From IMG/VR virus record IMGVR_UViG_3300010882_000010: a stretch of 64,000 bases of DNA. The stretch is one strand, 5' to 3'. Position numbers and translations under genes: made by a program. Below the pieces are notes generated by a model, which had not been told where the DNA came from, made no database searches, and was given only the letters and a program-made list of their open reading frames with translations. Below are positions 1 to 46,650 of this stretch, one piece after another. This stretch comes from a virus. Its lineage: Duplodnaviria > Heunggongvirae > Uroviricota > Caudoviricetes. Every line of letters starts with the position of its first letter. The first letter of the stretch is position 1.

Positions 1-2
1 AT

Positions 3-917
3 CGTAAGTACATCGTTGCTAAAACTAAAGTAGTAGAAACAGCAATGTGTCAAAAAGAATGGGGTAGAATTGATTATGAACATGTACCATCAGTTGCGAT
101 GTCTCGTTACATGAAAGCTTTTGGTAAAAACGATGGAATTAGATTTACAGAATACGTGCAATCTGTTCAAAAAGGTGAAAAAGTAATGCATGCAAGTGCT
201 ACTTATCCATATGATATTATTCGCGCTTTAAGAAATTGTAGTAATCCTGATGCCGCAAATGCACAATGGTTGCAATTACCTAACTATTTGGAAGGTAATA
301 AAGAATCTATTATGCCAATGGTTGATGTTTCGGGTTCTATGGATAGCAAAGTTTCTGGAAGTATTACAGCAATGGATATTTCAATTTCTTTGGGAATTTA
401 TGTAGCAGAAAGAATGGAAGGACCGTTTAGAGATCATTTCATTACTTTCACAAGTGAACCAAAGTTACAAAGATTAACCGGAAGCTTATCTTCAAGATTA
501 CAACAAATTAAAGGACCTGTTGGATATGATACAAATATCGAAGCAGCTTTTAGAATGTTGTTAGATTGTGCTATTAAAGGTAATGTACCTCAATCTGAAA
601 TGCCTACAAAAATAATGATTATATCGGACATGGAATTTAATAATTCTTGTATTAGTGGACATGATGTAACAGCTATGTCAAAGATAAACAGTCTTTATGA
701 AGCAGCCGGATACAAAAGACCTGATATTATTTTCTGGAAAGTAAACGTTCTTTCTATGGAAAATTGCCCTGTAAAACATGATGCAGAGGGTACATGCTTA
801 GTTTCGGGATTTTCCCCAAGTATTTTGACATCATTGCTTGGTGGTGAAATGACTCCAATGAAAATTTTGGAAAAAACTATCAACAATCCAAGATATGATA
901 AAGTAGTTCTTGGATAA
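3..917 (+). CDS. DUF2828-family / vWA-domain protein (5' partial)
   Basis: Frame is open from base 3 (RKYIVAKTKVVETAMC...). Has the MIDAS motif DVSGSM, IISDMEF and the C-terminal LVSGFSPS typical of DUF2828/TROVE-vWA proteins. Confidence 0.8.
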   Translation, partial: RKYIVAKTKVVETAMCQKEWGRIDYEHVPSVAMSRYMKAFGKNDGIRFTEYVQSVQKGEKVMHASATYPYDIIRALRNCSNPDAANAQWLQLPNYLEGNKESIMPMVDVSGSMDSKVSGSITAMDISISLGIYVAERMEGPFRDHFITFTSEPKLQRLTGSLSSRLQQIKGPVGYDTNIEAAFRMLLDCAIKGNVPQSEMPTKIMIISDMEFNNSCISGHDVTAMSKINSLYEAAGYKRPDIIFWKVNVLSMENCPVKHDAEGTCLVSGFSPSILTSLLGGEMTPMKILEKTINNPRYDKVVLG

Positions 918-951
918 TTAAAACGGTTTGCAGACCGATACCGAAAAAAGT

Positions 952-980
952 AAAACTTTTTGGACCGTTTGTGTAATAAT
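952..980 (+). promoter_or_regulatory. Early/middle-type promoter motif AAAACTTTT-N13-TAATAAT
   Basis: One of six copies with identical 13-nt spacing, each upstream of a non-structural gene. Confidence 0.7.
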
Positions 981-997
981 AGCACAAACGGTTTTTT
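964..997 (+). terminator. Intrinsic terminator overlapping the promoter motif
   Basis: Stem ACCGTTTGTG/CACAAACGGT (10 bp) followed by a T-tract. Confidence 0.7.
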
Positions 998-1000
998 ATT

Positions 1001-1195
1001 ATGATTTTAAATTGGTTTTTTGCTTTTTGCTTACTTGGTATTTTAAGTGCCGGCGTTTTTGGAATTTCGAATGATTTTCTTTGTAATAATTCTAAAGGAG
1101 CTGAAATTGCTACCTTAATTTCGGGATTTAGTATGATTTTAAGTCAACTAGGAATAATAGTATTAATAATTTTGGAAATAATTTCTTTATGGTAA
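1001..1195 (+). CDS. Small membrane protein (2 TM)
   Basis: 64 aa with two hydrophobic segments, directly behind the promoter motif. Confidence 0.6.
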   Translation: MILNWFFAFCLLGILSAGVFGISNDFLCNNSKGAEIATLISGFSMILSQLGIIVLIILEIISLW

Positions 1196-1806
1196 TTTTA
1201 GAAGAGTTAAAGGAAATTTTAGGTAATGAAGAAAAAGTAATCAATTTTGAAACTGTTAAAGTTGATGATACTTTTTTAAGGCCTAGCAAGATTAAGTTTC
1301 TTTCAGATGTTTCTTACCTTAATAGTAGATATTATGATTTTAGTTGGGATTATTCTAATGAAGCACTTAGAATTACAGTAGATGATATCAATTATCATTT
1401 ATTGGAACTTAATGTAGTTGAAAGGTTTAGAGTAATAACTGAATATCAGTATGAAGATAGAAATTTTTTGTTTTTTCATTGGAGAAAGAAAGTAGGACAA
1501 ACAACAAATGAAGATGCTTGTAAAAAACTCTTAGAGAAAATTAAGACTGATATTGAAGAAAAGAACAAGCATATCAAAATTGATATTAAGAAATGGTTTA
1601 GTAATAAAGATAATGCACTTTATTATGGATTTAAGGTAAAGACCTATCTCATTAGTAAACAACAAGTTGGAAGTTACAAAACGGAATTACAAGAAGTTTC
1701 AATTTTTGATTTGAAAAGTTTGAAAAGAGAAAACAAGAAAAAGCAATTAAAAGAGAAGCAACAATTAATTGACAAAAAATTAGAAAATTTTTTAGCATGG
1801 CTATGA
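1189..1806 (+). CDS. Hypothetical protein
   Basis: 205-aa ORF overlapping its neighbours in operon fashion. Confidence 0.7.
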   Translation: MVILEELKEILGNEEKVINFETVKVDDTFLRPSKIKFLSDVSYLNSRYYDFSWDYSNEALRITVDDINYHLLELNVVERFRVITEYQYEDRNFLFFHWRKKVGQTTNEDACKKLLEKIKTDIEEKNKHIKIDIKKWFSNKDNALYYGFKVKTYLISKQQVGSYKTELQEVSIFDLKSLKRENKKKQLKEKQQLIDKKLENFLAWL

Positions 1807-2051
1807 TACAAGAAAACAGAAAATTATCAGGAATTTTCTTCAGGTTGAAAAATGAAGAATCTGGTGAAATGGAAGTTAGATGTTTTGAAGATTTTTCAGA
1901 AGATCAGCAAAAGTTCATTATGGAACAAAATAGTAAGACTAACAAAGATTATCAGATGTGGTTAGAAGGTCTTTGTTTGCAACTTTCAAGAACAATTAAA
2001 GAAATTGGAAATGAGTTAGATCTCTTTTCTGAATACAACTTAGAATCTTAG
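1797..2051 (+). CDS. Hypothetical protein
   Basis: 84-aa ORF overlapping the upstream stop. Confidence 0.65.
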   Translation: MAMIQENRKLSGIFFRLKNEESGEMEVRCFEDFSEDQQKFIMEQNSKTNKDYQMWLEGLCLQLSRTIKEIGNELDLFSEYNLES

Positions 2052-2063
2052 TTCAAAAAAGTT

Positions 2064-2074
2064 GGAATAGATAA
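2064..2074 (+). promoter_or_regulatory. Late-type promoter variant GGAATAGATAA
   Basis: Matches the recurring GGAATARATA motif; lies upstream of hsp20. Confidence 0.55.
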
Positions 2075-2167
2075 CATGACTGTGAATTTTGTCCGAGTTT
2101 AGCTCAGGCAAACAAAAACAAAATTAACAATACTAAAATAATATCCAATCTAAGGAGGGATTACAAA

Positions 2168-2632
2168 ATGCATGAATTAGTAAAATTCAACAATCAATTA
2201 AACAATTATTTAAATAGTTGGGGCGTAGAACCATTTTCAATTCTATGCCGAAATTTTTTCAATGAAAATTCACTTTTTGAACCGATTGAAGATTTTAAAT
2301 TTAATCATCCTGTTGATGTAACAAAAACAAAGGAAGGATTAGAAATTGAAGTCGCGGCAGTGGGAATTGATAAAGAAGACATCAAAATTAACATTGAAGA
2401 TGGTAATGTGCTTAGAATTTCTTACGATAAGAAAGAAGTAGAAGAAACCGAAAATGAAGAAAAGAAAACAATCCACAAAGGAATCAGTAGAAAATCATTC
2501 AAGTATGGTTATCAATTAGATTCTAGCAGATATGATCTTAATGATATTAAGGCAAATTTAGAGAAAGGTTTGCTTACTATTAAGGTTAAACATTGTGAAA
2601 AAGCATTACCTAAAATGGTAACAATTAACTAA
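2168..2632 (+). CDS. hsp20: Small heat-shock protein (Hsp20/alpha-crystallin)
   Basis: PVDV..., IEVAAVGIDKEDIKI, HKGISRKSF, ANLEKGLLTI motifs. SD AAGGAGG at 2152-2158. Confidence 0.92.
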   Translation: MHELVKFNNQLNNYLNSWGVEPFSILCRNFFNENSLFEPIEDFKFNHPVDVTKTKEGLEIEVAAVGIDKEDIKINIEDGNVLRISYDKKEVEETENEEKKTIHKGISRKSFKYGYQLDSSRYDLNDIKANLEKGLLTIKVKHCEKALPKMVTIN

Positions 2633-2659
2633 AAGTAAAAACAAGATAATTCACAGTCG

Positions 2660-2687
2660 AAATCCCTTAAGAAATTGAGGGATTTTT
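2660..2687 (+). terminator. Intrinsic terminator
   Basis: Stem AAATCCCTTAA-GAAA-TTGAGGGATTT with a GNRA loop, then a T-tract. Confidence 0.8.
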
Positions 2688-2747
2688 AGTTTTAAATCAA
2701 AACTTTTTGAGAATTTTGAATTAAAACAATAGTAGAAATTTGCAATT

Positions 2748-4398: not shown

Positions 4399-4416
4399 AA
4401 AGTTTCAAAAAATTTT

Positions 4417-4432
4417 GGAATAAATAGTAAAA
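4417..4432 (+). promoter_or_regulatory. Late-type promoter GGAATAAATAGTAAAA
   Basis: Exact consensus copy 23 nt upstream of the tnpB ATG. Confidence 0.7.
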
Positions 4433-4455: not shown

Positions 4456-5700
4456 ATGATTTTATCAGAACAACACATCATTAAACAATCAAATCCTCTT
4501 TATCAAGAGTTAGATATGTTGTGTTTTTTATCTAAAAATCTTTACAATTCAGCTCTTTATTCTGTACGTCAACATTATTTTGAAACAGGTAAATATCTAG
4601 GAAAGTTTGAATTGATTAAAAAGTTTGTTAAAGAAAAACAAGTTGATTATTATGCTTTACCTACTAAAGTGGCTACATGTGTACTTTTTCAAGTAGATCA
4701 AAACATGAAATCATTTTTTACACTTTTAAAGTTAAAACAAAAAGGACAATATCAACAACAAGTTAAATTACCTAAGTATCTTAAAAAAGATGGAAGAAAC
4801 ATAGGGATATTTCCAGAAGATGGAATTTCAGGAAAAGAATTAAAGAAAGGAATTATCAAATTCGGTGGAATAGAAATTAACAAAAAATTTGTTTCATTAG
4901 TTAAAGGAACTATCAAAACCAAACAACAAAAGGTTCAACAAGTTCGTATTATTCCTAAAAACGGATACTATACTGTAGAAGTGCTTTACAAAGTAGAATC
5001 AAAATCTAAACTACAAGACAATCAAAAATACTTATCAATTGATTTAGGCATAAACAACTTAGCAACTTTAACTTCTAATGTAACTAAACCTATCATAGTA
5101 AACGGAAGACCTGTAAAGAGTATTAACCAATACTTTAACAAAACTAAAGCAAAACTCTCTTCACAATTAGAAACAGTAAACAAAACTAAATCATCAAAAA
5201 GAACTCAATCTTTATCCTTAAAGAGAAACAATAAAATCAAAGATTACTTTCACAAGACATCTAGATTCATAGTGAATCATGCAATTTCTAACGACCTTAA
5301 TACTATAATTATCGGTAAGAATCAAGGCTGGAAACAAGACACAAATCTAGGTAGAGTTAATAATCAAAAGTTTGTTTCAATTCCATTTAACAATTTAATT
5401 CAAATGATAAGTTACAAAGCTGAATTACAAGGAATTAAAGTTATTGTAAGAGAAGAAAGTTACACAAGCCAAGCAAGTTTCTTGGATGGAGATTTCATAC
5501 CAAAGTATGGAGATAAGGATATTAAGGAATTTAGTGGAAAGAGGATTAAAAGAGGTCTCTACCAGACTAAAAATGGTAGATTAATTAATGCTGATGTTAA
5601 CGGAAGTTTAAACATCATGAAAAAAGAAGTTTCAAATGCTTTTGTGATAGAAAGATATGGAATAGAGGTGTGTGATACGCCATTAGTTGTAGGATTCTAG
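4456..5700 (+). mobile_element. tnpB: Solo TnpB (IS200/IS605, IS1341-like) RNA-guided nuclease gene, no tnpA
   Basis: N-terminal SKNLYN, RuvC-I SIDLGINNLA, IIIGKNQGWKQ, REESYTSQAS and RuvC-III INADVNGSLNI. Confidence 0.9.
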
Positions 5701-7106: not shown

Positions 7107-7109
7107 CAT

Positions 7110-9923: not shown

Positions 9924-11012
9924 ATGGAAATGTCAAAAAAAATATCGGTTAAAATCGGTCAAACCGAAGTTGGAAAAATTAATGAAAATGATGTGCAAAC
10001 AATTTCACAATTAACCAATATTACAAAAAATGCAGAATACAAAGAAATTATCATTAATTGTTTTGTTAATGAAATTAACATAGTAAACTTGAATGATGAT
10101 AAAAAAGAAACAGTAAGTGAGGATCTTTATTTAGCCATCTCTTCCGAAGAAAATAATTGTAAACAATTAGCTAATTATCTTCAAAATCGTACTATTTTAC
10201 TAGAAAATTTCATAGGAAGAAAATTTAACATAGAAGAAATTAACAATCAGATTGGAATTACTTCTAAAAAAACAGCAACAAAGTTTTTTAAGTACAATTG
10301 GTCATCTTCTCCAACAATGGGACAAGGTGAAATTTATCTTTCAACAATTTTTAAAGATGGCAGAAAACCAATACCTGGACAAGAAAAAGGTGATATTAAA
10401 ATTGGTAATACTATTGTTGAATGTAAAGGAACGAATGGAAGATTATCAGGTCAACATGGATATGGAACAGCAAGAGATATGAGAGGTTCTTTTTCTAAAA
10501 TGATTGAATGGATTGCAATAGAAGCTGGACTTTTAGATTACAAAGTACTTGATACAGGAGAAGAAACATTTTGGAGTATTGCAAAAAATCAAAAGCGCGG
10601 AATAGAAAAAAATTTAATGAATATCGTAGAACTTAGAGAAAAAGAATTTACTCGTGAATTTCGTTCTATTATTTCACTTAAAATTGTTGAAGCATGGAAA
10701 AGAGGCTATCTTTTAGATATTAAGGTAAATGACTACAAAGATTTTTTTACTGATACAATACGAAATGATGGATCAATTGATAAACATGCTTTTTGCTTAG
10801 CAACTTTAGAAATGATGTTTCTTTATTATCATGAAATGGAAAAGTTTAATTACTTAGCAATGGTTAATACTAAATCAGGTAATGTTTTGATAATAGAACC
10901 TAAAGATTTCATGGATTATGTTAGAGCTGGTAAAATTTTACTTACTGGTACACCATCTTTTACAGATAGAGCGGGTAATCAAGGTGGAGTTTGTGGAATT
11001 TCAATTAAGTAA
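9924..11012 (+). CDS. PD-(D/E)xK restriction-endonuclease-like protein
   Basis: GQGEI...GDIKIGNTIVECKG catalytic-type motif. Confidence 0.55.
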   Translation: MEMSKKISVKIGQTEVGKINENDVQTISQLTNITKNAEYKEIIINCFVNEINIVNLNDDKKETVSEDLYLAISSEENNCKQLANYLQNRTILLENFIGRKFNIEEINNQIGITSKKTATKFFKYNWSSSPTMGQGEIYLSTIFKDGRKPIPGQEKGDIKIGNTIVECKGTNGRLSGQHGYGTARDMRGSFSKMIEWIAIEAGLLDYKVLDTGEETFWSIAKNQKRGIEKNLMNIVELREKEFTREFRSIISLKIVEAWKRGYLLDIKVNDYKDFFTDTIRNDGSIDKHAFCLATLEMMFLYYHEMEKFNYLAMVNTKSGNVLIIEPKDFMDYVRAGKILLTGTPSFTDRAGNQGGVCGISIK

Positions 11013-13753: not shown

Positions 13754-13766
13754 GAATAAATAGTAG
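13754..13766 (+). promoter_or_regulatory. Late-type promoter GAATAAATAGTAG
   Basis: Motif copy upstream of 13784. Confidence 0.6.
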
Positions 13767-14290: not shown

Positions 14291-14306
14291 GGAATAAATA
14301 GTAAAA
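14291..14306 (+). promoter_or_regulatory. Late-type promoter GGAATAAATAGTAAAA
   Basis: Exact consensus heading the baseplate operon. Confidence 0.75.
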
Positions 14307-17096: not shown

Positions 17097-18566
17097 ATGG
17101 GTAAAACAATAGCAAGTCTTTTCGAACCAACAATTGAACTCGATGAACAGGTAATGACCGACTATTCATATGGTAGCGCTGGAATTGATCCAAGTGCATA
17201 TCCAGCCAATGAATTCAGAGGTGTAGATTTTCCGCACATCAATGTTAACGATTACACTTTTGGTGCAGAAGAGATAATGAAGTTTAATATCGACTGTACT
17301 GGAATTGTACCAAAGGTCTTCATTAAGGTTGTTTTGGCGACCTCTGGTGAGTTTTTATCCAAATCTATGCCAATGGACGGAGATATTGTTTCGGTGTACG
17401 TACGAGGTAAAGATGACCTTTTTAAGCCTATTCGAAATGACTATTTGATAACATCTGTGAGTACAATGGCAACACAAGATACATCAGCAGAAGGAGCCGG
17501 AAGTATTATCTCAATTGAAGGAGATTTAAACATTCCCGGTCTTTATGATGAAACCATTTTTTCAGAACAGGGAACATCTTTTGAAGTTATGAAGAAACTT
17601 GCAGAACAGATGGGATTAGGATTTGCAACAAATGAAGATAATACCGATGATGAAATGAATTGGATTTGTGCCAATGATACTAAGTTAGAATTCATGAAAC
17701 ATGTTACAGGTGCAGCTTGGAAAGATGAGACAAGTTTTTTTACTTTTTTTATTGACATGTACTATCATCTTAATTTTGTGAATGTTAATGATTTAATTAC
17801 CTATGATGCAAGTACTTTATTAGCACTTGCAGAGAATACAATGAGTGGAGGACAGTATGGTGAAGAAGAAACAGGAAAAGGTTTAATGGAAAAATGCTTT
17901 ACCAACCATTCAAATCAAAGAAGTTCAAATTTCTACGTTAATAATTTTAAACCTATTAACAACTCTTCACAAATTTCAAAGAATTATGGTTATGCACTGA
18001 ATACAATTTTCTATGATCATATTGGAAAAGAAGAGTGGCAATTACAAGCAAAAAGTTTGGTAACAGAAGGTGCTGAATCTCAAAAGGTTTTATTAAGGGG
18101 AAGAGCAAATGACGATAGTTACAATAATCAACAAAAGTACAACTATGTTGGTATTCAATACAATCATAGTGAACTAGAAAATTCTAATGTTCATGAGAAT
18201 TTTTACTTTGCAAGAGCACACAATATGATGAATAATTTAGAAATGGACAAAGTAAACTTAGAGGTAAAAATCAACAAGTTTAATCTTAATATCTACCGAT
18301 ATGAAAATGTGCCCGCGATTTTCTTTGTAACAAGTGATATCAAAAGAATGAAAGAATTGTCAGATGATGAAGAACAAGTTGATCCAACATCTGATGATCC
18401 AGAAACAGTACCAATTGCCGTAGATAGAGTGTACACTGGACATTATCTTGTTAAAGGACTGACTATTGTATTCAGTCCAACAGGTCAAGAATCTCCACAA
18501 GATTCCGGAATAACAGAAACTTTGGTATTAAGTAGAAGAGAGTGGCCAAGTCCATCAGGAGTTTAA
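17097..18566 (+). CDS. Baseplate hub protein (gp27/gpD-like)
   Basis: Position next to gp53-like; hub-like pattern (TSFEVMKKLA, YTGHYLVKG, LSRREW). Confidence 0.55.
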   Translation: MGKTIASLFEPTIELDEQVMTDYSYGSAGIDPSAYPANEFRGVDFPHINVNDYTFGAEEIMKFNIDCTGIVPKVFIKVVLATSGEFLSKSMPMDGDIVSVYVRGKDDLFKPIRNDYLITSVSTMATQDTSAEGAGSIISIEGDLNIPGLYDETIFSEQGTSFEVMKKLAEQMGLGFATNEDNTDDEMNWICANDTKLEFMKHVTGAAWKDETSFFTFFIDMYYHLNFVNVNDLITYDASTLLALAENTMSGGQYGEEETGKGLMEKCFTNHSNQRSSNFYVNNFKPINNSSQISKNYGYALNTIFYDHIGKEEWQLQAKSLVTEGAESQKVLLRGRANDDSYNNQQKYNYVGIQYNHSELENSNVHENFYFARAHNMMNNLEMDKVNLEVKINKFNLNIYRYENVPAIFFVTSDIKRMKELSDDEEQVDPTSDDPETVPIAVDRVYTGHYLVKGLTIVFSPTGQESPQDSGITETLVLSRREWPSPSGV

Positions 18567-24299: not shown

Positions 24300-25145
24300 A
24301 TGGCACAATTTGACAGAATAATCATGAATCCACCATATGGCGAGTTTCATTTTCCAATTTTTAAATCATCGGTTCAAAATTTTATCAAATCAACAGGAAT
24401 AGTAACAAGTCTACAACCGATGACATGGGTTCTTCATTCTTGGCGAGATGATGTTGATTTTGGATACAAAGAATTCATCTCCGAAATTGAAGATTATTGT
24501 TTCATTGAACAAGTACTTGATAATGGAGACGATACAACTTTTAAAGATGTTAACCTCTTTATCAATTTAGGAATTTTCAAAGTTTCGCACACTATTAAAA
24601 ATCCTAATATCAGAGATATAGTTACAACATCACATGGCATTCAATTCAAAAGATTTTTACCATTTTTGAAATCTTCTGGTGTTGATAATATCCGAGTAGA
24701 AAAGTTTGATAATCAACAATTTTGTGTACCATTAAAAACTATGCTCGGTGGTAATGGTAGAGGAATTGAAAGTCATTGTAAAGTAATTGTAAGAGTAAAT
24801 TATGGAACAATAATTAATGGAATTTGTTCAACAACAGGAAAGTCTTTAAAAGATTCTAAAACTTCATGTTCAGGTAAGATAGAGGATTGGCCAGTAGTAG
24901 TTTTTGATACAGAACAAGAACTCAAAAATTTCTACAATTTTTGTCATCTTTTGAGTTTTAGATTTTTTGTTCTTTTAGGACAAATCAAAGCACAAATCAT
25001 GTTAAAATACTTACCATTTCCATCAGACTACACAAAAGAATGGACAGAAGACAGTTACTTAAAATGGCTAGGAATTTTACATGAGAAAGAATGGATTTTA
25101 AATGTCATGAAACAAGCAATGAATGGAAAGTGGTTAAATTGTTAA
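24300..25145 (+). CDS. DNA adenine methyltransferase C-terminal part (NPPY + TRD), lacks motif I
   Basis: FDRIIMNPPY lies within the first 13 residues; no upstream SAM-binding FxGxG motif. Confidence 0.6.
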   Translation: MAQFDRIIMNPPYGEFHFPIFKSSVQNFIKSTGIVTSLQPMTWVLHSWRDDVDFGYKEFISEIEDYCFIEQVLDNGDDTTFKDVNLFINLGIFKVSHTIKNPNIRDIVTTSHGIQFKRFLPFLKSSGVDNIRVEKFDNQQFCVPLKTMLGGNGRGIESHCKVIVRVNYGTIINGICSTTGKSLKDSKTSCSGKIEDWPVVVFDTEQELKNFYNFCHLLSFRFFVLLGQIKAQIMLKYLPFPSDYTKEWTEDSYLKWLGILHEKEWILNVMKQAMNGKWLNC

Positions 25146-25189: not shown

Positions 25190-25205
25190 GGAATAAATAG
25201 TGAAA
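25190..25205 (+). promoter_or_regulatory. Late-type promoter GGAATAAATAGTGAAA
   Basis: Motif copy heading the amidoligase operon. Confidence 0.7.
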
Positions 25206-29502: not shown

Positions 29503-30648
29503 TTATTTTGCAAACAGATGACTATTTCTCATTTGGTATGGATATTCACACTCTCGATTTTGAAAAGTTATCACATCTTTGTTCATTACAAAACCATTCT
29601 TAATATCATAGGAATTACCTATTGTTGAATTTTCTGTATTCAAACTCACAATATCTTTCAGATATGGTAACAAACTTTTAGAAACTTCACGCGAACTTGC
29701 ATGTTTTAAGTATGAAGGTGAGTGATCACATGCATAATAACTAATTTTTTCATTCACATCAAAAATCGGATTTTCAAAAGTAGTTGGTTTTGCAAAGTAA
29801 AATCCCATTTTTTCATCACAAGAAACGTCTACAATTCCCATACCTCTTTTTAATTTTGCTAATTCCATTGAATTTGCAATAAACATGATAGGTTTGTGAA
29901 CATCTTGCAAGATGCAATTTACTATTAAATCTGTATCTGAAAGGGTGTTAATCAGTTTTACTTTTTTACCATCTTCTGTTGTCCACATCTCACCATTTTC
30001 TTCCCAATAATAATGATAATAACAGTTGGGATTTTTATCAGCAACCAAGTGTGTGGGACGTTGTGTGTAAACATGGATATTTTCATATCCTCTACCAAGT
30101 AAAGCATAGATAGCACCACGAGAAGTCATGCCAAATCCAAATACTACAACTTTTTGACGCTCACCATAAAATCCGTCTAATCCTTTCAGCTGCAAATAAT
30201 GCAATATTGAACAATATCCCGCTAATTCTCGATTACGTGAAAAGATGTAGATTGATTTTTTATTGTTATGATAACCATACATGTTTTCCCATGCCATAAG
30301 AGAAAGCTTTTTATCTATAGCAAGCTGGGCAATCTTTCGTTGCTGTACAGTATGCACCCATCCAGAAAGTGTAGCACCATTTTTCATTTTTTCTAAATCT
30401 TCCGGCATAGGTTTAGTTATCATAACTACGTCTTGTTGTAAAACAGTTTCCCTATCTGCAATTTGTGCTCCTAAATTAATGATTTCTTGATCCAAAACAC
30501 CTACTTCTTTACCATATCCTTTTTCAAAAACTAAATTTTGCAAAATTTCTTTATCAATTTGCTTAATATACTCTGGTAATATTGGTACTCGATGTTCGTT
30601 TTCTTTCGAACTTGTTTTAATTATGCCTGTTTTGTAGTAATAGGTCAT
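29503..30648 (-). CDS. N5-(carboxyethyl)ornithine synthase-like (AlaDh/PNT family) oxidoreductase
   Basis: TSSKENEHRVPI, FEKGYG, GWVHTVQ, Rossmann FGFGMTSRGA, DVSCD..MGF.FAKPTTF and DHSPS motifs. Confidence 0.8.
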   Translation of the reverse strand: MTYYYKTGIIKTSSKENEHRVPILPEYIKQIDKEILQNLVFEKGYGKEVGVLDQEIINLGAQIADRETVLQQDVVMITKPMPEDLEKMKNGATLSGWVHTVQQRKIAQLAIDKKLSLMAWENMYGYHNNKKSIYIFSRNRELAGYCSILHYLQLKGLDGFYGERQKVVVFGFGMTSRGAIYALLGRGYENIHVYTQRPTHLVADKNPNCYYHYYWEENGEMWTTEDGKKVKLINTLSDTDLIVNCILQDVHKPIMFIANSMELAKLKRGMGIVDVSCDEKMGFYFAKPTTFENPIFDVNEKISYYACDHSPSYLKHASSREVSKSLLPYLKDIVSLNTENSTIGNSYDIKNGFVMNKDVITFQNRECEYPYQMRNSHLFAK

Positions 30649-30685: not shown

Positions 30686-31417
30686 TTAGTGGAAAATGTA
30701 GAACCAATCAGGTACATTTTCACTATCTACTCTTTCTAAAATTTTCTCTAATTCATCTTGTCCGTCTTGTTTTATTGAATCTCCATTAATTGTAATACCA
30801 CCAGGAAGATTAAAAGAAAATGTAGTAAGTACTCGCCCCAAACTAATTCTTGCTTGTGCTACACAATATCTTTGAAATGTCCAATCTTCAAACAATGACT
30901 CTTCAGGAATTTTATTGTAAGCTGATATGCAAACAGAATACTTAGGATCTCTTCCGACTATTGTTAAAATCTTAGTATTATGATTAAAATCTGTAGAAAT
31001 TCTGTCAATAAAGAAAGCTTTTGATAAATCCCAATAAGACTCATATGCTGTACGAAGTACCATATCATCAGAACCCCAAGGACTGAGGTAAATTTCTTGT
31101 GCAATCATTTTTTCTGCAGAAAAATCAGCACCAAAATATCCAAGTTTATTGTAACCTTTAATTTCTTTAACTTCATAGACAGAAACAACACAATCTGGGA
31201 GTTTAAGAGTACGACCTTTCTTAAATTCTTTAGATTCAAAGTACTTTCTATCTACTATGTAATAACCTGCCGTTACTGAATATTGATAATCAATGTAAGC
31301 CCAACGTAAAGCTGAGTCAATAATTCTATTGTACTCTTTATCATTAAGAGAATAAGGAAGAACACAACCTGCTGTAATCTCATCTTTTATTAACTGGATA
31401 AATTGATCTCTTGTCAT
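30686..31417 (-). CDS. Neck/head-tail adaptor protein (T4 gp13-like)
   Basis: C-terminal LGRVL...LPGGITING..I...G.DE signature; late promoter. Confidence 0.75.
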   Translation of the reverse strand: MTRDQFIQLIKDEITAGCVLPYSLNDKEYNRIIDSALRWAYIDYQYSVTAGYYIVDRKYFESKEFKKGRTLKLPDCVVSVYEVKEIKGYNKLGYFGADFSAEKMIAQEIYLSPWGSDDMVLRTAYESYWDLSKAFFIDRISTDFNHNTKILTIVGRDPKYSVCISAYNKIPEESLFEDWTFQRYCVAQARISLGRVLTTFSFNLPGGITINGDSIKQDGQDELEKILERVDSENVPDWFYIFH

Positions 31418-31421: not shown

Positions 31422-31508
31422 ATACTACTTTTTACTATTTATTCCGAATTATTTTGAAGTTAAAATTATTGGTCAAAATAATTCGGAATAAATAGTAAAA
31501 AGTAGTAT
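31422..31508. repeat. Perfect 36-bp inverted repeat carrying back-to-back late promoters
   Basis: 31422-31457 is the exact reverse complement of 31473-31508 (15-nt spacer). Promoters at 31430-31445 (-) and 31485-31500 (+). Confidence 0.95.
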
Positions 31509-39730: not shown

Positions 39731-39746
39731 GGAATAAATAGTAAAA
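39731..39746 (+). promoter_or_regulatory. Late-type promoter GGAATAAATAGTAAAA
   Basis: Exact consensus. Confidence 0.75.
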
Positions 39747-42755: not shown

Positions 42756-42777
42756 AATTTAAAATAATACGAACTTA

Positions 42778-45700
42778 ATGCAAACGCAGAATAGTTTTAG
42801 TGAGCTAATAGACAAATTTGTACTATTGCAAAATAATAGTTTAAGCATAATTCAAAAGCTTAATGAAGCAATAGTTTCGGATAATGAAGAGATTTCTTTC
42901 AAGTTGTACGATATGAATGGAGAGGAAAATGAGTACAATTTTCCTTCATTTGGTTTTCTTAAAGAGTCAATGAACAGAATTGATAATACTTTAAAAAAGT
43001 TAATGGGTATTGGAGACGGTGAGTCTATTATGCAAATGCCAGATGGAACTTTTAAAAGAATAGTTACTGTAGATTTAGCAACAGAACCGGCAAATATCTT
43101 AAATTTAGTTGTACCATCTCAATTTGGTGTAAAACCTAATTGGTTTTTTGAGTCTTTTCTTAGTCCAAGTCTTCATATATCAGTAGATGTTTCAAAGTAT
43201 ATCCCACAATCTGGAAAGCGAATTTTAGTAAAACGAGTAATAGTTCTCGCGGATACAATTAGTCAAAAAACTTTTTTTGATGTTAATTACAAAGGAAGAA
43301 ATGATATCAAACTTGAAGAACTTTATGCAGACCTTAATAATAATGGAATACTTTATCATGAAGATGAAGAGGTAAAAGAACTTCCTCTTTCAATTTTACA
43401 GTATGAAGGCACTTTTGATGTAATTGATATCAAAGATATTAGAGTAATTGATAATGATGGAATTGAAAAAGTAACAAGACAATACTTTCTTAACAAGTTA
43501 ACATACAATAATAATCTCAATAAAGTTCCTGATTCACTTAGTCTTAAAATTGGAGATACTTTAGTAGTTGAAGATACAACATACCAAGTTTCTTCTGTAG
43601 ATGCTTCAATTAATGCAATTACTTTAAGACGGCTTTCAGGATATGATACAATTTCAATAGGTGCTGATATTTTAAGAGTTTATAGTAGTTTGTTTGCACC
43701 TAAAAAAGCAGATGTTGATATCAGTTTTAACGAAAGACAAGTGGTTTTCTTTAAAGCAATCGAAGAATCTAATAATATTATCTCAAAACAATGGAGTCCT
43801 GGTATTGGTATTTTTACTAATGATTTAAAAATTGTTACAACAACAGGTGAACAAGATCTTAAAACGTTCTATTACAATAATGTAATGGATTTTAGTAATA
43901 TCATCATGTCAATGGCAAAGGAAAAAACAATTCCTTCAATTTATGGTGAGATTCCTGATGCACCATTCATTGATGATACTAATTTTAAGGTAGTTAGAAT
44001 TAATGAGCATTTGTTTGATAGTAAAGAGCAGGAAGATATCAGTAAAAAATCAGCAGATAAAGTTAAACTAAAATCTGAAATTCAACAAATTGAAAGTTCT
44101 ATTGAGTCAAACAAACAAATTCTAGGAAATACTACATTTAAAACAGAGCAAGAAAGAACATCGGTAAAGAATACTATCAATTCTTTAATAGCTGAAAAAA
44201 CAGCAAAATCGGCACTTTATGATTCTTTAGTTTTAGATTTAGTAGGAATTGCAAAAGAACACAATATTGTAGTTGAAAAACCAAGATATCATATCAGAGG
44301 ATTTTTTGAAATTCCAGATCCTAAATTTAATGAAAATACAGGATTTCAAGAAGTAATTCAATTTGAGTATGCTTACCGATATTTAAGAACAGACAATAAA
44401 CCAGCGAAAGCACAACAATTAGAATTTAGAGGAAGAGGTAAACAAACAAGAAGAGGAACTTACTCACCATGGGAATACGTTAAGTCTTCTATTAGAAAAC
44501 GTTACTATGATGAAATTGCTGGTATCTACAAATGGCAAGGTGAAGAGATAGAAAATCCAGATGTTGTTAATATTAATCAAGTTGATATTCCAATTACGAA
44601 AGGAGAAAAGGTTGAAATTAGAATTAAATCATTTTCTGAAGCAGGATGGCCAATTAATCCTATTGAATCAAGATGGTCAGATACAGTTACAGTTACTTTT
44701 CCCGATGAACTTTGGGTTAATGATCCAACAGCTCTAGCTTTAGAACAAGCAAGAAATGAAGAAAGTTTTGTTAGATTTGAAGCAAGTTTAAGAGCTAAAA
44801 ATGTTGATTTGCACTTATCTACATCAACGCAAACAGGTGATAGATATTTAGCACATGATGCTAACATGATAGCAAGTGGGTTTTTTGATGATTCAGGAAT
44901 AATTTTGAACATGTATGAAAAGATTCAACAACTTGAAGCTGAGTTAATGGCTCTTAGAAATCAAATTGATAAGAAAAAAGGTATTTTGCAAGTTGCAATA
45001 GTTGAAGGAGAAATTAATACTATTAAAACTTTTGTAGAAAATGGAAGTACTGTAGATTTGTTTGCAGGTTACTATACTGATTACATAGATATGCTACCTC
45101 CTAATGAAAAGAAAGGTGCTATAGTTACTAAAGTTTATCGTTTGGTAATTTCAAATACTGAAAAAGCACCATTAGAATTGGTTTCTCAATTTCCTGGAGG
45201 ATTAATGGATAGATTACCTGAAGTAGCAACAGAAGAAAGAACTTTAACTTTTGATAGTGAAAATACTACTTTAGAATTAGAGTCGAGTACTTTAGCAACT
45301 AATGATATTTTAATTGGGGCTACAATTCCAATAACACATGATATTCAAACAGAAGTAATGATTGCGGGTGCACCTACTATAGTTACTTTTCCAGCTAATT
45401 CAATTCAAATTCCAGCTAATGCTATTACAATACCATCACAAAATCTTGAATTAGCTTCTCAAAATTTAGATGTTGGATTAAATAAAATGAGAACTACAAT
45501 ATCTTCAGAAGATGCAGGCTCTAGGGCTACAAGAGAAGATAATGATTATTTTAATAGACGTAGATATTGGGAAGTTCCTATTAATAATTTACCATTATTA
45601 ACAGAAGAAACTAAAAATTCTAATGGAATTTATGCTGGTAATGTACAATCGCGTCAATTAAGATCTCAATTCATGTACTTACGCAAAAAGAATATTGGAT

Positions 45701-46650
45701 TAGTAACAGATCTTTACAAAGATAGCCCAGGATCAAGATATTTAGAACCTTCAATTACAGGTACAAGAACGGGTTCTGGAACAACTTTATCTGGATCTTC
45801 GAATGCTTTTGTGTGGGGTGGAAGTTTTAATGTTGAAGATGAAAATAATATTATTCCAGAGGGTAATGGACCTCTTAATGATTTTTGTATTCATGTTGAC
45901 TGTCCAATTTTACAACCTAAAAATGGTAGTAATTGGAATTGGGAAGATACAGTACCAACAATAGATGATTTTCAAAAACCTGAAATTGATTTAGGTCCTG
46001 ATGATTTACCAGTTTCTCCAATGAAAGTTGTTGCTTTTAGACATGCAGAATTTTTTAACAGACAATCAACAGAGCAAGATGGTAAAATTCAATTACAATT
46101 TAAAGATGCTTGGGATTATGAAAAAATTAATGGACAACCAAAAACTTTTGATGAAATCACAGAAGAAAAAGAATATCAATACCAAGATAAATTAGGATTT
46201 TATCCTCATGATAGATGGTTAATTGGTAAAAATACTTGCGGATGTTATCTTTTTGCAGCACCTTCTTATTTTGATCAATTATTAGTAGATGGAACAGATT
46301 TTAGAGCAACAAAAAATGTTGAATTTGGAGAGAATAAAGCAATAGTAGTTCCAATTATTTTTCAATATCGTATGGTAGATTTTTATGGTGAAGGGAATAA
46401 TCCAAATAGTGGAATAATCGGAGGATATACTACAGATAATACTAAATCAACTAATATTCAAAATATCATCTATGAAAAGAAATTAGGTATTGATATTAAT
46501 ATTAAAGATGAACCGATGTTTTCATTTGATATTGGAGTTTCTTCAAAATATTCTAAAAAGACACAAGCAGAAAAAGTAGAGACTGTTGTAAATTTAGGAC
46601 AACAATTAACTACTTTACAAGTTGATAAAGTACAGTTAAAAAGTCTTTAA
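42778..46650 (+). CDS. Large virion structural protein
   Basis: 1290 aa with coiled coils and an Ig/FN3-like segment (VEIRIKS....G......S.WS). Confidence 0.6.
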   Translation: MQTQNSFSELIDKFVLLQNNSLSIIQKLNEAIVSDNEEISFKLYDMNGEENEYNFPSFGFLKESMNRIDNTLKKLMGIGDGESIMQMPDGTFKRIVTVDLATEPANILNLVVPSQFGVKPNWFFESFLSPSLHISVDVSKYIPQSGKRILVKRVIVLADTISQKTFFDVNYKGRNDIKLEELYADLNNNGILYHEDEEVKELPLSILQYEGTFDVIDIKDIRVIDNDGIEKVTRQYFLNKLTYNNNLNKVPDSLSLKIGDTLVVEDTTYQVSSVDASINAITLRRLSGYDTISIGADILRVYSSLFAPKKADVDISFNERQVVFFKAIEESNNIISKQWSPGIGIFTNDLKIVTTTGEQDLKTFYYNNVMDFSNIIMSMAKEKTIPSIYGEIPDAPFIDDTNFKVVRINEHLFDSKEQEDISKKSADKVKLKSEIQQIESSIESNKQILGNTTFKTEQERTSVKNTINSLIAEKTAKSALYDSLVLDLVGIAKEHNIVVEKPRYHIRGFFEIPDPKFNENTGFQEVIQFEYAYRYLRTDNKPAKAQQLEFRGRGKQTRRGTYSPWEYVKSSIRKRYYDEIAGIYKWQGEEIENPDVVNINQVDIPITKGEKVEIRIKSFSEAGWPINPIESRWSDTVTVTFPDELWVNDPTALALEQARNEESFVRFEASLRAKNVDLHLSTSTQTGDRYLAHDANMIASGFFDDSGIILNMYEKIQQLEAELMALRNQIDKKKGILQVAIVEGEINTIKTFVENGSTVDLFAGYYTDYIDMLPPNEKKGAIVTKVYRLVISNTEKAPLELVSQFPGGLMDRLPEVATEERTLTFDSENTTLELESSTLATNDILIGATIPITHDIQTEVMIAGAPTIVTFPANSIQIPANAITIPSQNLELASQNLDVGLNKMRTTISSEDAGSRATREDNDYFNRRRYWEVPINNLPLLTEETKNSNGIYAGNVQSRQLRSQFMYLRKKNIGLVTDLYKDSPGSRYLEPSITGTRTGSGTTLSGSSNAFVWGGSFNVEDENNIIPEGNGPLNDFCIHVDCPILQPKNGSNWNWEDTVPTIDDFQKPEIDLGPDDLPVSPMKVVAFRHAEFFNRQSTEQDGKIQLQFKDAWDYEKINGQPKTFDEITEEKEYQYQDKLGFYPHDRWLIGKNTCGCYLFAAPSYFDQLLVDGTDFRATKNVEFGENKAIVVPIIFQYRMVDFYGEGNNPNSGIIGGYTTDNTKSTNIQNIIYEKKLGIDINIKDEPMFSFDIGVSSKYSKKTQAEKVETVVNLGQQLTTLQVDKVQLKSL

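What the first reader, a model, noticed from the sequence alone, without database searches (positions are those of the whole stretch)
1..46600. Genome-wide purge of the 4-mer TATA in a highly AT-rich genome
Seen by eye: TATA occurs only about once per kb in 1-46.6 kb and about 57.1-60.2 kb, against more than 10 per kb around 48-49.5 kb (rough hand counts). Synonymous choices avoid it: TAC before A-starting codons (TACAAA, TACAAT) and ATC after T-ending codons (GATATC, AATATC), despite the AT bias. The core promoters are also TATA-free (GAATAAATA rather than T4 TATAAATA; TAATAAT rather than TATAAT), while one island promoter reads GAATATATAA (60519). Inference: long-term selection against a TATA-recognising agent, such as an uncharacterised host nuclease or DNA-modifying toxin, a phage nuclease that degrades host DNA at TATA, or TA-targeting transposons. 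Avoidance of spurious promoters is an alternative explanation.
Basis: partly seen in the sequence, partly recalled or inferred. Interest (0 to 1): 0.8.

Follow-up and report, generated by a model that had tools for sequence, protein, structure and literature searches.

The report
Lineage-specific TATA purge in jumbo phage
One lineage of very large T4-like phages has removed almost every copy of the four-letter word TATA from its long-resident DNA, even rewriting its late promoters, while over 70 relatives have not, which points to an unidentified enzyme or protein that recognises TATA.

Summary
In window 1-46600 TATA occurs 37 times against 184 expected (Markov O/E 0.20) and is the most depleted of all 256 tetranucleotides. 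With protein sequence and codon usage held fixed, the 235 resident genes of the 217.7 kb contig have 220 TATA against 862 expected (0.26). All three frames are affected, so are intergenic DNA (0.40) and all flanking bases. ATAT that does not overlap TATA is normal (0.97).

The purge is lineage-specific. Seventy-one related phage loci show 0.78-1.12, relatives at 60% marker identity show 0.95-0.99, and 63 Bacteroidota genomes show 0.67 or more. In orthologous codons the relatives carry 54-125 TATA where this phage carries 1-9, replaced synonymously. The T4-type late promoter TATAAATA of the relatives reads GGAATAAATAG here.

TATA-normal, lower-GC genes sit next to genes with none. I read them as recent imports.

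Avoidance of sigma70-type promoters is rejected (TACAAT 1.51). I found a second, co-distributed purge of AAATA/TATTT.

My best reading (0.45) is site avoidance against a TATA-specific restriction-type enzyme acting on double-stranded DNA. Neither the agent nor the host was identified. This scan had not noted the same thing on other DNA.

The parts
1..46650 (.). TATA-purged resident DNA (about 40 genes, nearly all on the + strand)
   Evidence: 37 TATA against 184 expected, O/E 0.20. The orthologous block 6-30 kb has 8/78 = 0.10.
46657..57353 (+). TATA-normal, low-GC block (GC 0.22-0.30) of four genes: 2077 aa, 869 aa with a weak, sub-threshold collagen-repeat hit, 301 aa and 293 aa
   Evidence: O/E 0.76 and 8-12 TATA per kb; the change falls at the gene boundary. 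The 2077 aa protein has homologues in the same phage family, so an allele was probably replaced.
57675..59954 (+). Purged resident gene (759 aa) lying between the two TATA-normal blocks
   Evidence: 1 TATA in 2280 bases; window 57100-60200 has O/E 0.30.
59954..64000 (+). Second TATA-normal, low-GC block (includes a DUF7487 gene and one with a borderline Laminin_G_3 lectin-fold hit)
   Evidence: 60500-64000 has 44/46.8 = 0.94; Pfam hits.
4418..4427 (+). TATA-free late-type promoter core GAATAAATAG (upstream of TnpB)
13754..13763 (+). Late-type promoter core GAATAAATAG
14292..14301 (+). Late-type promoter core GAATAAATAG upstream of the 731 aa gene; relatives have TATAAATA at the orthologous spot
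   Evidence: (L003 7229, L005 7575, L006 7284)
25191..25200 (+). Late-type promoter core GAATAAATAG upstream of the 475 aa gene; relative L006 has ATATATAAATAAAAT there
31435..31444 (-). Late-type promoter core for the minus-strand gene pair 30686-31417 and 29503-30648
31486..31495 (+). Late-type promoter core GAATAAATAG
39732..39741 (+). Late-type promoter core GAATAAATAG
52894..52903 (+). Lineage-type promoter variant GAATAAATAA upstream of the 869 aa island gene
60519..60528 (+). Island promoter-like GAATATATAA, which keeps TATA
9924..11012 (+). PD-(D/E)XK-like nuclease candidate (362 aa), 0 TATA
   Evidence: E136, D157 and K168 are invariant and E166 nearly invariant in 40 homologues. AlphaFold2 pLDDT is 92. 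Fold matches to HhaI, HinP1I and MspI are weak. No link to TATA was shown.
24300..25145 (+). Possible DNA methyltransferase catalytic/TRD half (an earlier first-stage note reads an NPPY motif), inserted between genes that are adjacent in relatives
Evidence: No ortholog in the relatives' syntenic loci. Only a weak PHROG hit (E 0.00086, unknown function) and no PDB match, so the methyltransferase reading is not confirmed here.

Best explanation
The resident DNA of this very large T4-like phage has been purged by natural selection of the palindromic tetranucleotide TATA. The genome is two contigs totalling at least 364 kb; the host is unknown and is probably a member of the Bacteroidota.

The most likely cause is site avoidance. 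This lineage alone met, or still meets, an enzyme that recognises double-stranded TATA symmetrically. The leading candidate is a type II restriction-type endonuclease of its host or of a mobile element. Every TATA raised the risk of damage, so synonymous changes that removed it were fixed.

The pressure reached non-coding DNA. The family's T4-type late promoter TATAAATA was rewritten to TGGAATAAATAGTAAAAG, which implies that the late sigma factor co-evolved. With the TATA half gone, recognition rests on the AAATA half. I infer that this is why AAATA/TATTT words are also avoided on both strands outside promoters.

Genes with normal TATA content and lower GC are later imports, acquired by recombination with TATA-normal relatives and not yet purged.

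Shown: the depletion, its specificity, its restriction to this lineage, the synonymous replacements, the promoter change, and the gene-by-gene mosaic. Inferred: the nature of the agent, the order of events, and that the low-GC genes are imports.
For: Specificity:
- TATA is the most depleted 4-mer under a Markov model and under codon shuffling.
- All flanks are affected: TATAA 0.26, TATAT 0.22, TATAC 0.25, TATAG 0.31, GTATAC 0.21.
- ATAT that does not overlap TATA is 0.97, TAATA 0.91, TTAA 1.05, AATT 1.07, and TATATA 0.06.

Not a coding effect:
- All three frames are depleted.
- Core intergenic DNA is 0.40.
- Codon choice depends on the neighbouring base.

Restricted to this lineage:
- 71 family loci show 0.78-1.12, median 0.94, against 0.10 for the orthologous block here.
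- Relatives at 60-61% marker identity show 0.95-0.99.
- Codon-shuffle O/E in relatives is 0.99 and 0.91.
- 63 sampled Bacteroidota genomes have median 0.87 and minimum 0.67.

Selection at synonymous sites:
- In aligned orthologous columns relatives carry 54-125 TATA and this phage 1-9.
- Where the amino acids are kept, this phage reads TACA, TATT, TTTA, TATC, TCTA and others.

Fits the restriction-site pattern:
- Other family members have fully purged classical restriction palindromes: GATC 0, CCGG 0 and GGCC 0.02 in L022/L023; CTAG 0 in L003 and L085; CATG 0.25-0.34 in L041, L069 and L077.
- Site avoidance in non-temperate dsDNA phages mainly concerns orthodox type II sites (PMC6286503).
- A palindrome is expected for a symmetric reader of double-stranded DNA, but is only 16 of 256 words for a reader of single strands.

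Action at the DNA level:
- About 17 promoters carry GGAA where relatives carry TATA.
- At least one of these promoters lies just after a terminator hairpin.

Imports:
- TATA density per gene is bimodal, with 0 next to 10-25 per kb. The TATA-rich genes have GC 0.20-0.25 against about 0.30.
Against: - No TATA-specific enzyme was found, and I know of no characterised restriction enzyme with this site. That is my own knowledge; REBASE was not available. The held, truncated part of one published specificity table lists no TATA site.
- The host is unknown.
- About 625 TATA remain in the 217.7 kb contig and 606 in the second contig. A classical type II enzyme should still destroy such a genome, so partial removal gives no obvious benefit. 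It would make sense only if the agent is weak, the pressure is past, or protection by methylation is partial.
- The two purged words, TATA and AAATA, together tile the family's late promoter TATAAATA. For a restriction site this is a coincidence of roughly one in ten. It fits a transcription-related cause better.
- Mild TATA under-representation is common in genomes: mean ratio 0.68 over 200 genomes in PMC3077040.
Confidence: 0.45

Rival explanations
1. The cause lies in transcription. The purged words are the two halves of the family's late promoter TATAAATA, which is also a canonical TATA-box word. In this lineage a late sigma factor, or some other TATA-box-like DNA binder, may act on half-sites. 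The genome would then avoid both halves on both strands to prevent spurious initiation or binding.
For: - TATA (0.26) and TAAATA/TATTTA (0.24/0.26) are both purged, and so are AAATA/TATTT (0.50/0.51). This holds only in resident genes.
- The two purges co-vary over 91 bins of both contigs (rho 0.64).
- TAAATA is kept mainly in promoters: 39 copies in 19 kb of non-coding DNA against 64 in 199 kb of coding DNA. Of the non-coding copies, 21 are in the AATAAATA form.
- Selection of this kind is graded, so it tolerates the sites that remain.
Against: - The real promoters lost TATA (GGAATAAATAG). That is the opposite of what is expected if TATA were a recognised promoter half.
- Depletion does not depend on flanks. 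GTATAC (0.21) and TTATAC (0.27) are hit as hard as TATAAA (0.21).
- Relatives with TATAAATA promoters avoid neither the halves nor the whole word inside genes: 0.99, 1.04 and 1.11.
- Sigma70-type -10 words are not avoided: TACAAT 1.51, TAAAAT 1.10, TAGAAT 1.22.
- The Bacteroidota -7 word TAnnTTTG is at 0.87.
Confidence: 0.2
2. The phage carries the agent itself. A phage-encoded restriction-like nuclease, for example the gene at 9924-11012, would attack TATA-rich host or competitor DNA. The phage's split adenine methyltransferases would protect its own DNA only in part, so its own TATA sites are costly and are selected against.
For: - The 9924-11012 protein has an invariant or near-invariant E...D...ExK signature.
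- Its AlphaFold2 model is confident (pLDDT 92).
- Its best fold matches, although weak, are enzymes that cut 4-bp sites: HhaI (Z 4.6), HinP1I and MspI.
- The gene has 0 TATA and evolves much faster than its neighbours.
- The contig holds at least one Pfam-supported methyltransferase catalytic half (Eco57I-like). First-stage notes report further halves.
- Partial self-protection would give graded selection and would tolerate imports.
Against: - Distant homologues occupy the same spot in TATA-normal relatives such as L003 (O/E 1.08), L032 and L037.
- Contigs that carry the closest homologues (36-37% identity) have TATA at 0.89-0.94.
- Fold Z-scores below 5 are within the range of unrelated matches.
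- No specificity can be read from the sequence.
Confidence: 0.1
3. The agent acts on DNA but does not cleave it, and its cost grows with the number of sites. Candidates are a motif-specific DNA ADP-ribosyltransferase of the DarT kind, a nicking enzyme, a base-excision enzyme, or a silencing protein that nucleates on TATA.
For: - Hundreds of sites remain and TATA-rich imports are tolerated. This fits a cost proportional to site number better than a single lethal cut.
- Promoters were cleared of TATA, as expected if bound or damaged sites block transcription.
Against: - No such protein is known to target TATA (my own knowledge).
- Enzymes that act on single strands have no reason to prefer a palindrome.
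- Known AT-hook silencers read AT-rich DNA loosely, whereas ATAT, TAAT, TTAA and AATT are all normal here.
Confidence: 0.1
4. The selection acts on RNA. A host or abortive-infection endoribonuclease would cut UAUA, and transcripts with fewer sites would last longer.
For: - Nearly all DNA is transcribed from one strand (270 of 282 genes).
- Selection of this kind is graded.
- The most depleted stretches include the structural genes.
- Toxin RNases with AU-rich four-letter sites exist, for example PemK of S. aureus at UAUU (my own knowledge).
Against: - A palindrome is not expected for a reader of RNA (16 of 256 words).
- Promoter DNA upstream of the start sites also lost TATA.
- The co-distributed AAATA/TATTT purge is equal on both strands, which points to DNA.
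- Per-gene TATA density is bimodal rather than graded with likely expression.
Confidence: 0.07
5. The cause is a mutational or repair bias that converts TATA into other words, as Vsr repair is thought to do to CTAG in enterobacteria, rather than selection on TATA as such. An assembly or base-calling artefact is a minor variant of this rival.
For: - Imports that are not yet converted would look like the observed islands.
- TATA to TACA is the commonest replacement (39 of 119 conserved-residue cases).
Against: - Replacements hit all four positions and include transversions (TATT, TTTA, TCTA, AATT). They follow whichever synonymous codon is available, not one mutational signature.
- Close relatives, which presumably have similar replication genes, show no bias.
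- Against an artefact: reading frames are intact, the replacements are synonymous, TATA-normal genes lie in the same contig, and a second contig from another record shows the same pattern.
Confidence: 0.07

Closest known systems
Restriction-site avoidance in virulent dsDNA phages (for example GATC loss in Staphylococcus phage K and in T7; survey in PMC6286503)
   Same: A short palindrome is removed far below the composition-corrected expectation. It is removed by synonymous changes and in a lineage-specific way. Relatives purge other palindromes (GATC, CCGG, GGCC, CTAG, CATG).
   Different: The word is TATA, for which I know of no characterised restriction enzyme. The host and the enzyme are unknown. 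Hundreds of sites remain. A core promoter had to be rewritten. A second, non-palindromic word is purged alongside.
General palindrome and TATA under-representation in prokaryotic genomes (PMC3077040; PMC2745766)
   Same: TATA is among the 4-mers that are often below expectation and that vary between genomes.
   Different: The usual effect is mild: a mean ratio of 0.68 in that survey, a median of 0.87 in the 63 Bacteroidota genomes sampled here, and 0.94 in this phage family. Here it is 0.10-0.26, and it is confined to resident genes.
T4-type late promoter TATAAATA, recognised by gp55
   Same: Relatives carry (T/A)ATATAAATA upstream of orthologous late genes. This phage keeps the ATAAATA core at the same spots.
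   Different: The first two letters are replaced (GGAATAAATAG) and the conserved element is longer (TGGAATAAATAGTAAAAG). The phage's late sigma factor was not examined.
Avoidance of spurious promoters inside genes (non-translational codon selection, reviewed in PMC8410138)
   Same: The AAATA/TAAATA purge, with retention of the word in promoters, fits this kind of avoidance.
   Different: The TATA purge does not fit. The word is absent from the real promoters, and -10-like words without TATA are not avoided.

Membership tests
Restriction-site avoidance (orthodox type II R-M) | The avoided word is a short palindrome | tested here: met
   TATA is its own reverse complement. The depletion is confined to the exact 4-mer.
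Restriction-site avoidance (orthodox type II R-M) | Depletion holds against composition- and codon-corrected expectation, in all frames and in non-coding DNA | tested here: met
   Markov O/E 0.20, codon-shuffle 0.26, frames 0.31/0.11/0.26, intergenic 0.40.
Restriction-site avoidance (orthodox type II R-M) | Specific to a lineage or host rather than a family-wide composition trait | tested here: met
   71 family loci at 0.78-1.12; relatives at 60% identity at 0.95-0.99.
Restriction-site avoidance (orthodox type II R-M) | A cognate endonuclease and methyltransferase of that specificity exists in the host | not testable with these tools
   The host was not identified and REBASE was not available.
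Restriction-site avoidance (orthodox type II R-M) | Few enough sites remain to allow escape from cleavage | tested here: not met
   625 and 606 TATA remain in the two contigs, although only 0.7-0.8 per kb in the purged parts.
Spurious sigma70-type -10 promoter avoidance | Depletion follows the TAnnnT consensus, strongest for TATAAT and its near variants | tested here: not met
   TACAAT 1.51, TAAAAT 1.10, TAGAAT 1.22, TATGAT 1.27. TATAAT (0.39) is less depleted than AATATA (0.15).
T4-type late promoter | The consensus TATAAATA lies upstream of late genes | tested here: not met
   This phage has GGAATAAATAG in about 17 copies. Relatives have TATAAATA at orthologous spots.
PD-(D/E)XK nuclease superfamily (gene 9924-11012) | Conserved acidic and lysine residues in the pattern E...D...(D/E)xK | tested here: met
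   E136, D157 and K168 are invariant and E166 is at least 90% conserved in 40 homologues. The same motif is present in the L003 homologue.
PD-(D/E)XK nuclease superfamily (gene 9924-11012) | Restriction-endonuclease-like alpha/beta core fold | tested here: inconclusive
   The best matches are HhaI (Z 4.6), HinP1I (Z 3.8) and MspI (Z 3.6), with Foldseek E = 0.2. All are within the range of unrelated matches.

The most novel reading that the evidence does not exclude
An enzyme that recognises the bare tetranucleotide TATA in double-stranded DNA exists in this phage's host or in the phage itself. It would be a restriction-type specificity with no characterised example that I know of. Its pressure was strong enough to strip the word from at least 364 kb of phage DNA. 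It also forced the T4-type late promoter, and presumably the late sigma factor, to be rewritten from TATAAATA to GGAATAAATAG.
Probability: 0.35. Interest if true: 0.75.

Novelty: new variant of a known kind. Interest (0 to 1): 0.6.

Why it matters
Oligonucleotide avoidance is one of the few ways to read an unknown defence enzyme's specificity from a phage genome alone.

This signal is unusually clean. It is an exact 4-mer, it is specific to one lineage, and more than 70 relatives serve as negative controls.

If the agent is a TATA-specific nuclease or modifying enzyme, it would fill a missing specificity among 4-bp recognition enzymes and could be a useful reagent. It would also show that defence pressure can reach into a phage's core transcription signals and drive promoter and sigma factor to co-evolve.

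The sharp contrast between purged and unpurged genes marks recently imported genes in a giant phage. It could be used to date gene flow.

If the cause is instead transcriptional, the finding would show a T4-like late system that acts on promoter half-sites.

Tried and rejected
Searches that found nothing useful:
- Megablast of 10 kb of the window against GenBank phages gave no match.
- A single-protein search of IMG/VR gave no relatives. An alignment of homologues was needed.

Host identification failed:
- TnpB homologues (62% identity or less) lie mostly on other huge phage-like contigs and carry no organism names.
- The marker protein hits only five metagenome-bin contigs in genome assemblies. 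Two are labelled as archaea, which I regard as mis-binning of AT-rich phage contigs.
- A 20 kb stretch searched against 401 Bacteroidota genomes gave only short matches of 77-94% identity and no spacer-like exact match.

Ideas rejected:
- TA-targeting transposons. The two TnpB copies are alike only from the start codon to about 60 nt past the stop, and they have phage promoters upstream.
- Gene 9924-11012 as a lineage-specific TATA nuclease. Its family also occurs in TATA-normal phages. Pfam, PHROGs and PDB sequence searches found nothing, and the fold matches are weak.
- General avoidance of TpA steps or (TA)n repeats. ATAT, TAATA, TACTA and TAGTA are all normal.
- The host-type -7 box TAnnTTTG, which is at 0.87.

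Inconclusive:
- The two methyltransferase halves have no PDB sequence match.
- Literature searches found no report of a TATA-specific enzyme and no statement that none exists.

An error of mine, corrected:
- The quick O/E divided by the count of TA instead of AT, which inflates the expectation.
- therefore made Bacteroidota genomes look TATA-poor (median 0.63), which is wrong. The correct figures are a median of 0.87 and a minimum of 0.67.
- The qualitative maps in the earlier calls still stand.
Full report
WHAT THE WINDOW IS

The window is the reverse complement of one end of a 217.7 kb IMG/VR phage contig. Its last 988 bases lie beyond that contig. Simple ORF calling gives 282 genes, 270 of them on one strand, with 91% of the DNA coding.

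The proteins are mostly unassignable. The assignable ones include a baseplate hub-like protein, an S1-domain protein, a T4 gp21-like prohead protease, a clamp-loader-like ATPase and two TnpB genes.

A conserved 489 aa structural-block protein (17097-18566) finds distant relatives at 23-29% identity in jumbo and mega phages of Bacteroidota: Lak phages of Prevotella, Tenacibaculum PTm1, Flavobacterium MaF61 and Chryseobacterium MA9V. It also finds many uncultured relatives at up to 68% identity.

THE OBSERVATION

TATA occurs 0-5 times per 2 kb across 1-46 kb and 58-60 kb, and 10-30 times per 2 kb in 46-58 kb and 60-64 kb.

Under a second-order Markov model, window 1-46600 has 37 TATA against 184.4 expected (O/E 0.20, z -10.9). 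This is the lowest of all 256 tetranucleotides. The block 46657-56455 has O/E 0.76 and 60500-64000 has 0.94.

I shuffled synonymous codons among the 235 resident genes of the contig, which keeps every protein sequence and the overall codon usage. This gives 862 +/- 20 expected against 220 observed (0.26). The three frames give 0.31, 0.11 and 0.26. In this test too, TATA is by far the most depleted 4-mer (z -21.9; the next is -12.2). Core intergenic DNA is at 0.40.

- Tyr is TAT in 20% of cases before an A-starting codon, and in 82-84% before C or G.
- Ile is ATA in 7% of cases after a T-ending codon, against 26% otherwise.
- Leu is TTA in 3% of cases before Tyr, against 49% otherwise.
These effects are far weaker in the TATA-normal genes.

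HOW SPECIFIC THE WORD IS

The depletion does not depend on flanking bases:
- On the 3' side: TATAA 0.26, TATAT 0.22, TATAC 0.25, TATAG 0.31.
- On the 5' side: ATATA 0.18, TTATA 0.20, GTATA 0.32, CTATA 0.53.
- As hexamers: GTATAC 0.21 and TTATAA 0.18.

TATATA is at 0.06, about the square of 0.25. ATAT that does not overlap TATA is at 0.97. TAATA is 0.91, TACTA 1.07, TAGTA 0.97, TTAA 1.05, AATT 1.07 and TAAT 1.14.

So no longer motif explains the depletion, and it is not a general dislike of TpA steps or TA repeats. Every TATA in a coding region can be removed synonymously, so the purge needs no protein change.

THE PURGE BELONGS TO THIS LINEAGE ONLY

Syntenic contigs of relatives have normal TATA content (Markov O/E):

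| Marker identity | Loci | TATA O/E |
|---|---|---|
| 61% | L009 | 0.99 |
| 60% | L008 | 0.95 |
| 56% | L003 | 1.08 |
| 49% | L005 | 0.97 |
| 45% | L006 | 1.07 |

An alignment-based scan of IMG/VR returned 80 loci. The 71 loci of at least 8 kb have TATA O/E of 0.78-1.12, median 0.94. The orthologous block of this phage (6-30 kb) has 8/78 = 0.10. Codon-shuffle O/E in relatives is 0.99 for the near ones and 0.91 for the far ones.

In aligned orthologous codon columns the relatives carry 54-125 TATA and this phage 1-9. Where the amino acids are conserved, this phage reads TACA (39 cases), TATT, TTTA, TATC, TCTA, AATT and others. These changes fall at all four positions and include transversions. 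That is the pattern of selection choosing among available synonyms, not of one mutational signature.

A sample of 63 Bacteroidota genomes (20 kb each) has a median of 0.87 and a minimum of 0.67. A published survey gives a mean ratio of 0.68 over 200 genomes under its own model (PMC3077040).

An earlier quick calculation of mine used the wrong denominator and made bacterial genomes look TATA-poor. It is void and is corrected.

PROMOTERS

About 17 intergenic sites in the contig read TGGAATAAATAGTAAAAG, against one such word inside genes. The window holds eight GAATAAATAR cores.

At the orthologous positions relatives have the T4-type word, for example ATATATAAATAAAA upstream of the orthologues of the 731 aa and 475 aa genes. 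Across the family, TATATAAATA is the commonest form upstream of genes.

So the first half of the late promoter, TATA, has been replaced by GGAA in this lineage. At least one such promoter lies directly after a terminator-like hairpin, so it is probably not part of an upstream transcript. This favours an effect on DNA over an effect on RNA.

Sigma70-type -10 words that lack TATA are not avoided: TACAAT 1.51, TAAAAT 1.10, TAGAAT 1.22, TATGAT 1.27. TATAAT (0.39) is less depleted than AATATA (0.15).

THE ISLANDS

TATA density per gene is bimodal. Genes with 0 TATA lie next to genes with 10-25 per kb. The TATA-rich genes mostly have GC 0.20-0.25, against about 0.30 for resident genes. One TATA-normal block at the far end of the contig is instead GC-richer (0.34-0.39). 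In the window the switch falls at the boundary 46650/46657.

TATA-normal genes include:
- an 869 aa protein with a weak, sub-threshold collagen-repeat hit;
- a protein with a borderline Laminin_G_3 lectin-fold hit;
- outside the window, an Eco57I-like methyltransferase half.

The 2077 aa protein (46657-52890) is conserved in the same phage family: 31.6% identity over 53% of its length to LR756500, with hits also in PTm1 and the Lak phages. It is therefore not an alien gene. More likely it is an allele brought in by recombination with a TATA-normal, lower-GC relative.

The purge itself cannot explain a GC gap of 6-8 points. I read the islands as later imports that have not yet been purged. This is an inference.

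A SECOND CONTIG

Searching IMG/VR for the promoter word found IMGVR_UViG_3300010167_000014, a contig of 146.4 kb. It shows the same mosaic: 12 of 37 four-kb bins have O/E below 0.4, pooled 32/149 = 0.21.

It also carries the same promoter and the same 90-nt intergenic element. It lacks the marker gene and shares only a few paralogue-level proteins with the first contig.

It is probably the other part of the same genome, or of a near-identical one. The genome would then be at least 364 kb, in line with relatives of 320-425 kb. It is not an independent lineage.

A SECOND PURGE

Resident genes also avoid AAATA (0.50) and its complement TATTT (0.51). The longer forms go lower: TAAATA 0.24, TATTTA 0.26, and CAAATA/TATTTG 0.33 each. 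The effect is equal on both strands and largely independent of flanks. TAATTA (1.16), TAAACA (1.11) and TAAGTA (1.16) are normal.

Island genes (0.8-1.0) and relatives (0.88-1.04) do not show this purge. Over 91 bins of both contigs it co-varies with the TATA purge (rho 0.64, p about 1e-11).

TAAATA survives mainly in promoters: 39 copies in 19 kb of non-coding DNA against 64 in 199 kb of coding DNA.

Together, TATA and AAATA tile the family's late promoter TATAAATA. My preferred reading is a chain of events:
1. An outside agent removed TATA.
2. The promoter was rebuilt around the AAATA half plus new flanks.
3. AAATA words elsewhere then became harmful as spurious promoters.

The alternative is that one transcription-related agent acts on both halves. 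I keep this as the main rival. It does not explain why the real promoters lost TATA, why GTATAC is hit as hard as TATAAA, or why relatives with TATAAATA promoters avoid nothing.

THE KIND OF AGENT

Other members of the family have completely purged classical restriction palindromes:
- GATC 0, CCGG 0 and GGCC 0.02 in L022/L023;
- CTAG 0 in L003 and L085;
- CATG 0.25-0.34 in L041, L069 and L077.

Site avoidance in virulent dsDNA phages mainly concerns orthodox type II sites (PMC6286503). A palindrome is expected for a symmetric reader of double-stranded DNA. It is only one word in sixteen for readers of RNA or single-stranded DNA. This makes a restriction-type enzyme the leading candidate.

Two points count against it. 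More than 1,200 TATA remain in the two contigs, which a classical 4-bp cutter should not tolerate. And I know of no characterised enzyme with this site; that is my own knowledge and could not be verified here (the only partial check is).

Several things could reconcile this:
- The pressure may be past. The TATA-normal block includes tail-fibre-like host-recognition genes, so a host switch is conceivable.
- The agent may be weak or load-dependent, such as a nickase, a DarT-like modifier or a binding protein.
- Protection by methylation may be partial.

Gene 9924-11012 has 99 homologues. Among 40 of them, E136, D157 and K168 are invariant and E166 is nearly so, giving a PD-(D/E)XK-like signature. 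The AlphaFold2 model is confident (pLDDT 92).

Its best fold matches are restriction enzymes that cut 4-bp sites: HhaI (Z 4.6), HinP1I and MspI. These scores lie within the range of unrelated matches.

Distant homologues sit at the same genomic spot in TATA-normal relatives. The contigs that carry the closest homologues have TATA at 0.89-0.94. It is a plausible nuclease, but nothing ties it to TATA.

VERDICT

It is a selection-driven, lineage-specific purge of an exact palindromic 4-mer, it reaches into promoters, and recent imports stand out against it.

The mechanism is not settled. My estimates are:
- site avoidance against a TATA-recognising enzyme acting on double-stranded DNA: 0.45;
- a transcription-related cause: 0.20;
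- a phage-borne nuclease: 0.10;
- a non-cleaving DNA agent: 0.10;
- an RNase: 0.07;
- mutational bias or artefact: 0.07.

It is a new variant of a known kind of genome signature.

Noticed in passing
whole contig; in the window, for example, all resident genes in 1-46650: There is a second purge, in resident genes only and on both strands: AAATA 0.50, TATTT 0.51, TAAATA 0.24, TATTTA 0.26, CAAATA and TATTTG 0.33. It is absent from the islands and from relatives, and it co-varies with the TATA purge (rho 0.64). TAAATA is kept mainly in promoters.
   Followed up: yes
IMGVR_UViG_3300010167_000014 (loci L112-L119, 146,406 bases): A second contig shows the same TATA mosaic, the same GGAATAAATAG promoter and the same intergenic element, but shares no core genes. 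It is probably the other part of this genome, which would then be at least 364 kb.
   Followed up: partly
outside the window: contig positions (window orientation) about 18.7k, 48.8k, 64.3k, 77.8k, 102.6k and 124.1k; also at least four copies in L116-L118: A conserved intergenic element of about 90 nt, ATTGTTAGTAAC...GTATCAGTATTTTTAGTATTTTT(A/G), lies just upstream of genes. Some copies read TATTTTTG, which fits the Bacteroidota -7 box TAnnTTTG. It is a likely early, host-type promoter class and a hint that the host belongs to the Bacteroidota.
   Followed up: partly
window 9924-11012: A 362 aa protein has no Pfam or PHROG hit but carries a conserved E...D...ExK nuclease-like signature and gives a confident AlphaFold2 model. 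Its gene evolves much faster than its neighbours and is replaced by an unrelated gene of about 470 aa at the same spot in L005 and L006.
   Followed up: yes
window 4456-5700, and a second copy outside the window (contig, window orientation, 69481-70719): Two TnpB (OrfB_IS605) genes are 88% identical. Each lies behind a phage late-type promoter, with about 60 nt of shared 3' tail and no transposase or IS ends. The closest homologues are on other contigs of 300-400 kb.
   Followed up: partly
window 46657-52890: The 2077 aa protein in the TATA-normal, GC 0.22 block is conserved across the phage family (LR756500, PTm1, Lak). The block therefore looks like an allelic replacement rather than a foreign gene.
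   Followed up: partly
resident and island genes, sense strand: Some depletion is strand-specific: CATT is 0.66 while AATG is 1.09, ACATT is 0.30 and GCATT is 0.24. It is also seen in the islands (0.59 and 0.44). Because it is strand-specific it may act on RNA or translation. TACATC is enriched threefold as a result.
   Followed up: no
related loci L022/L023, L003, L085, L063, L041/L069/L077: Relatives have completely or nearly completely purged other words: GATC, CCGG and GGCC; CTAG; GCGT (0 in L063, not a palindrome); and CATG. Each is a lead to a host restriction system.
   Followed up: no
L012:2106-3056 (minus strand), outside the window: An Eco57I-like methyltransferase catalytic half lies in a TATA-rich gene of GC 0.20. 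It would be the third such half if the two reported in earlier notes hold, and it looks like a recent import.
   Followed up: partly
window 24300-25145: A possible methyltransferase catalytic/TRD half (read as such in an earlier first-stage note) is inserted between the S1-domain gene and the amidoligase-like gene. These two genes are adjacent in relatives, yet the insert is already TATA-poor (1 site).
   Followed up: partly
resident genes: AAAAAA is at 0.55 of expectation (394 against 716) and ACCC is at 0.15. TAAG is low under the Markov model in nearly every family member, but only 0.85 under codon shuffling here.
   Followed up: no
window 63013-64000: The last 988 bases of the window are not on the 217.7 kb contig that was laid as the genome. 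The protein collection lists a second contig of 219,030 bases that carries the same proteins.
   Followed up: no
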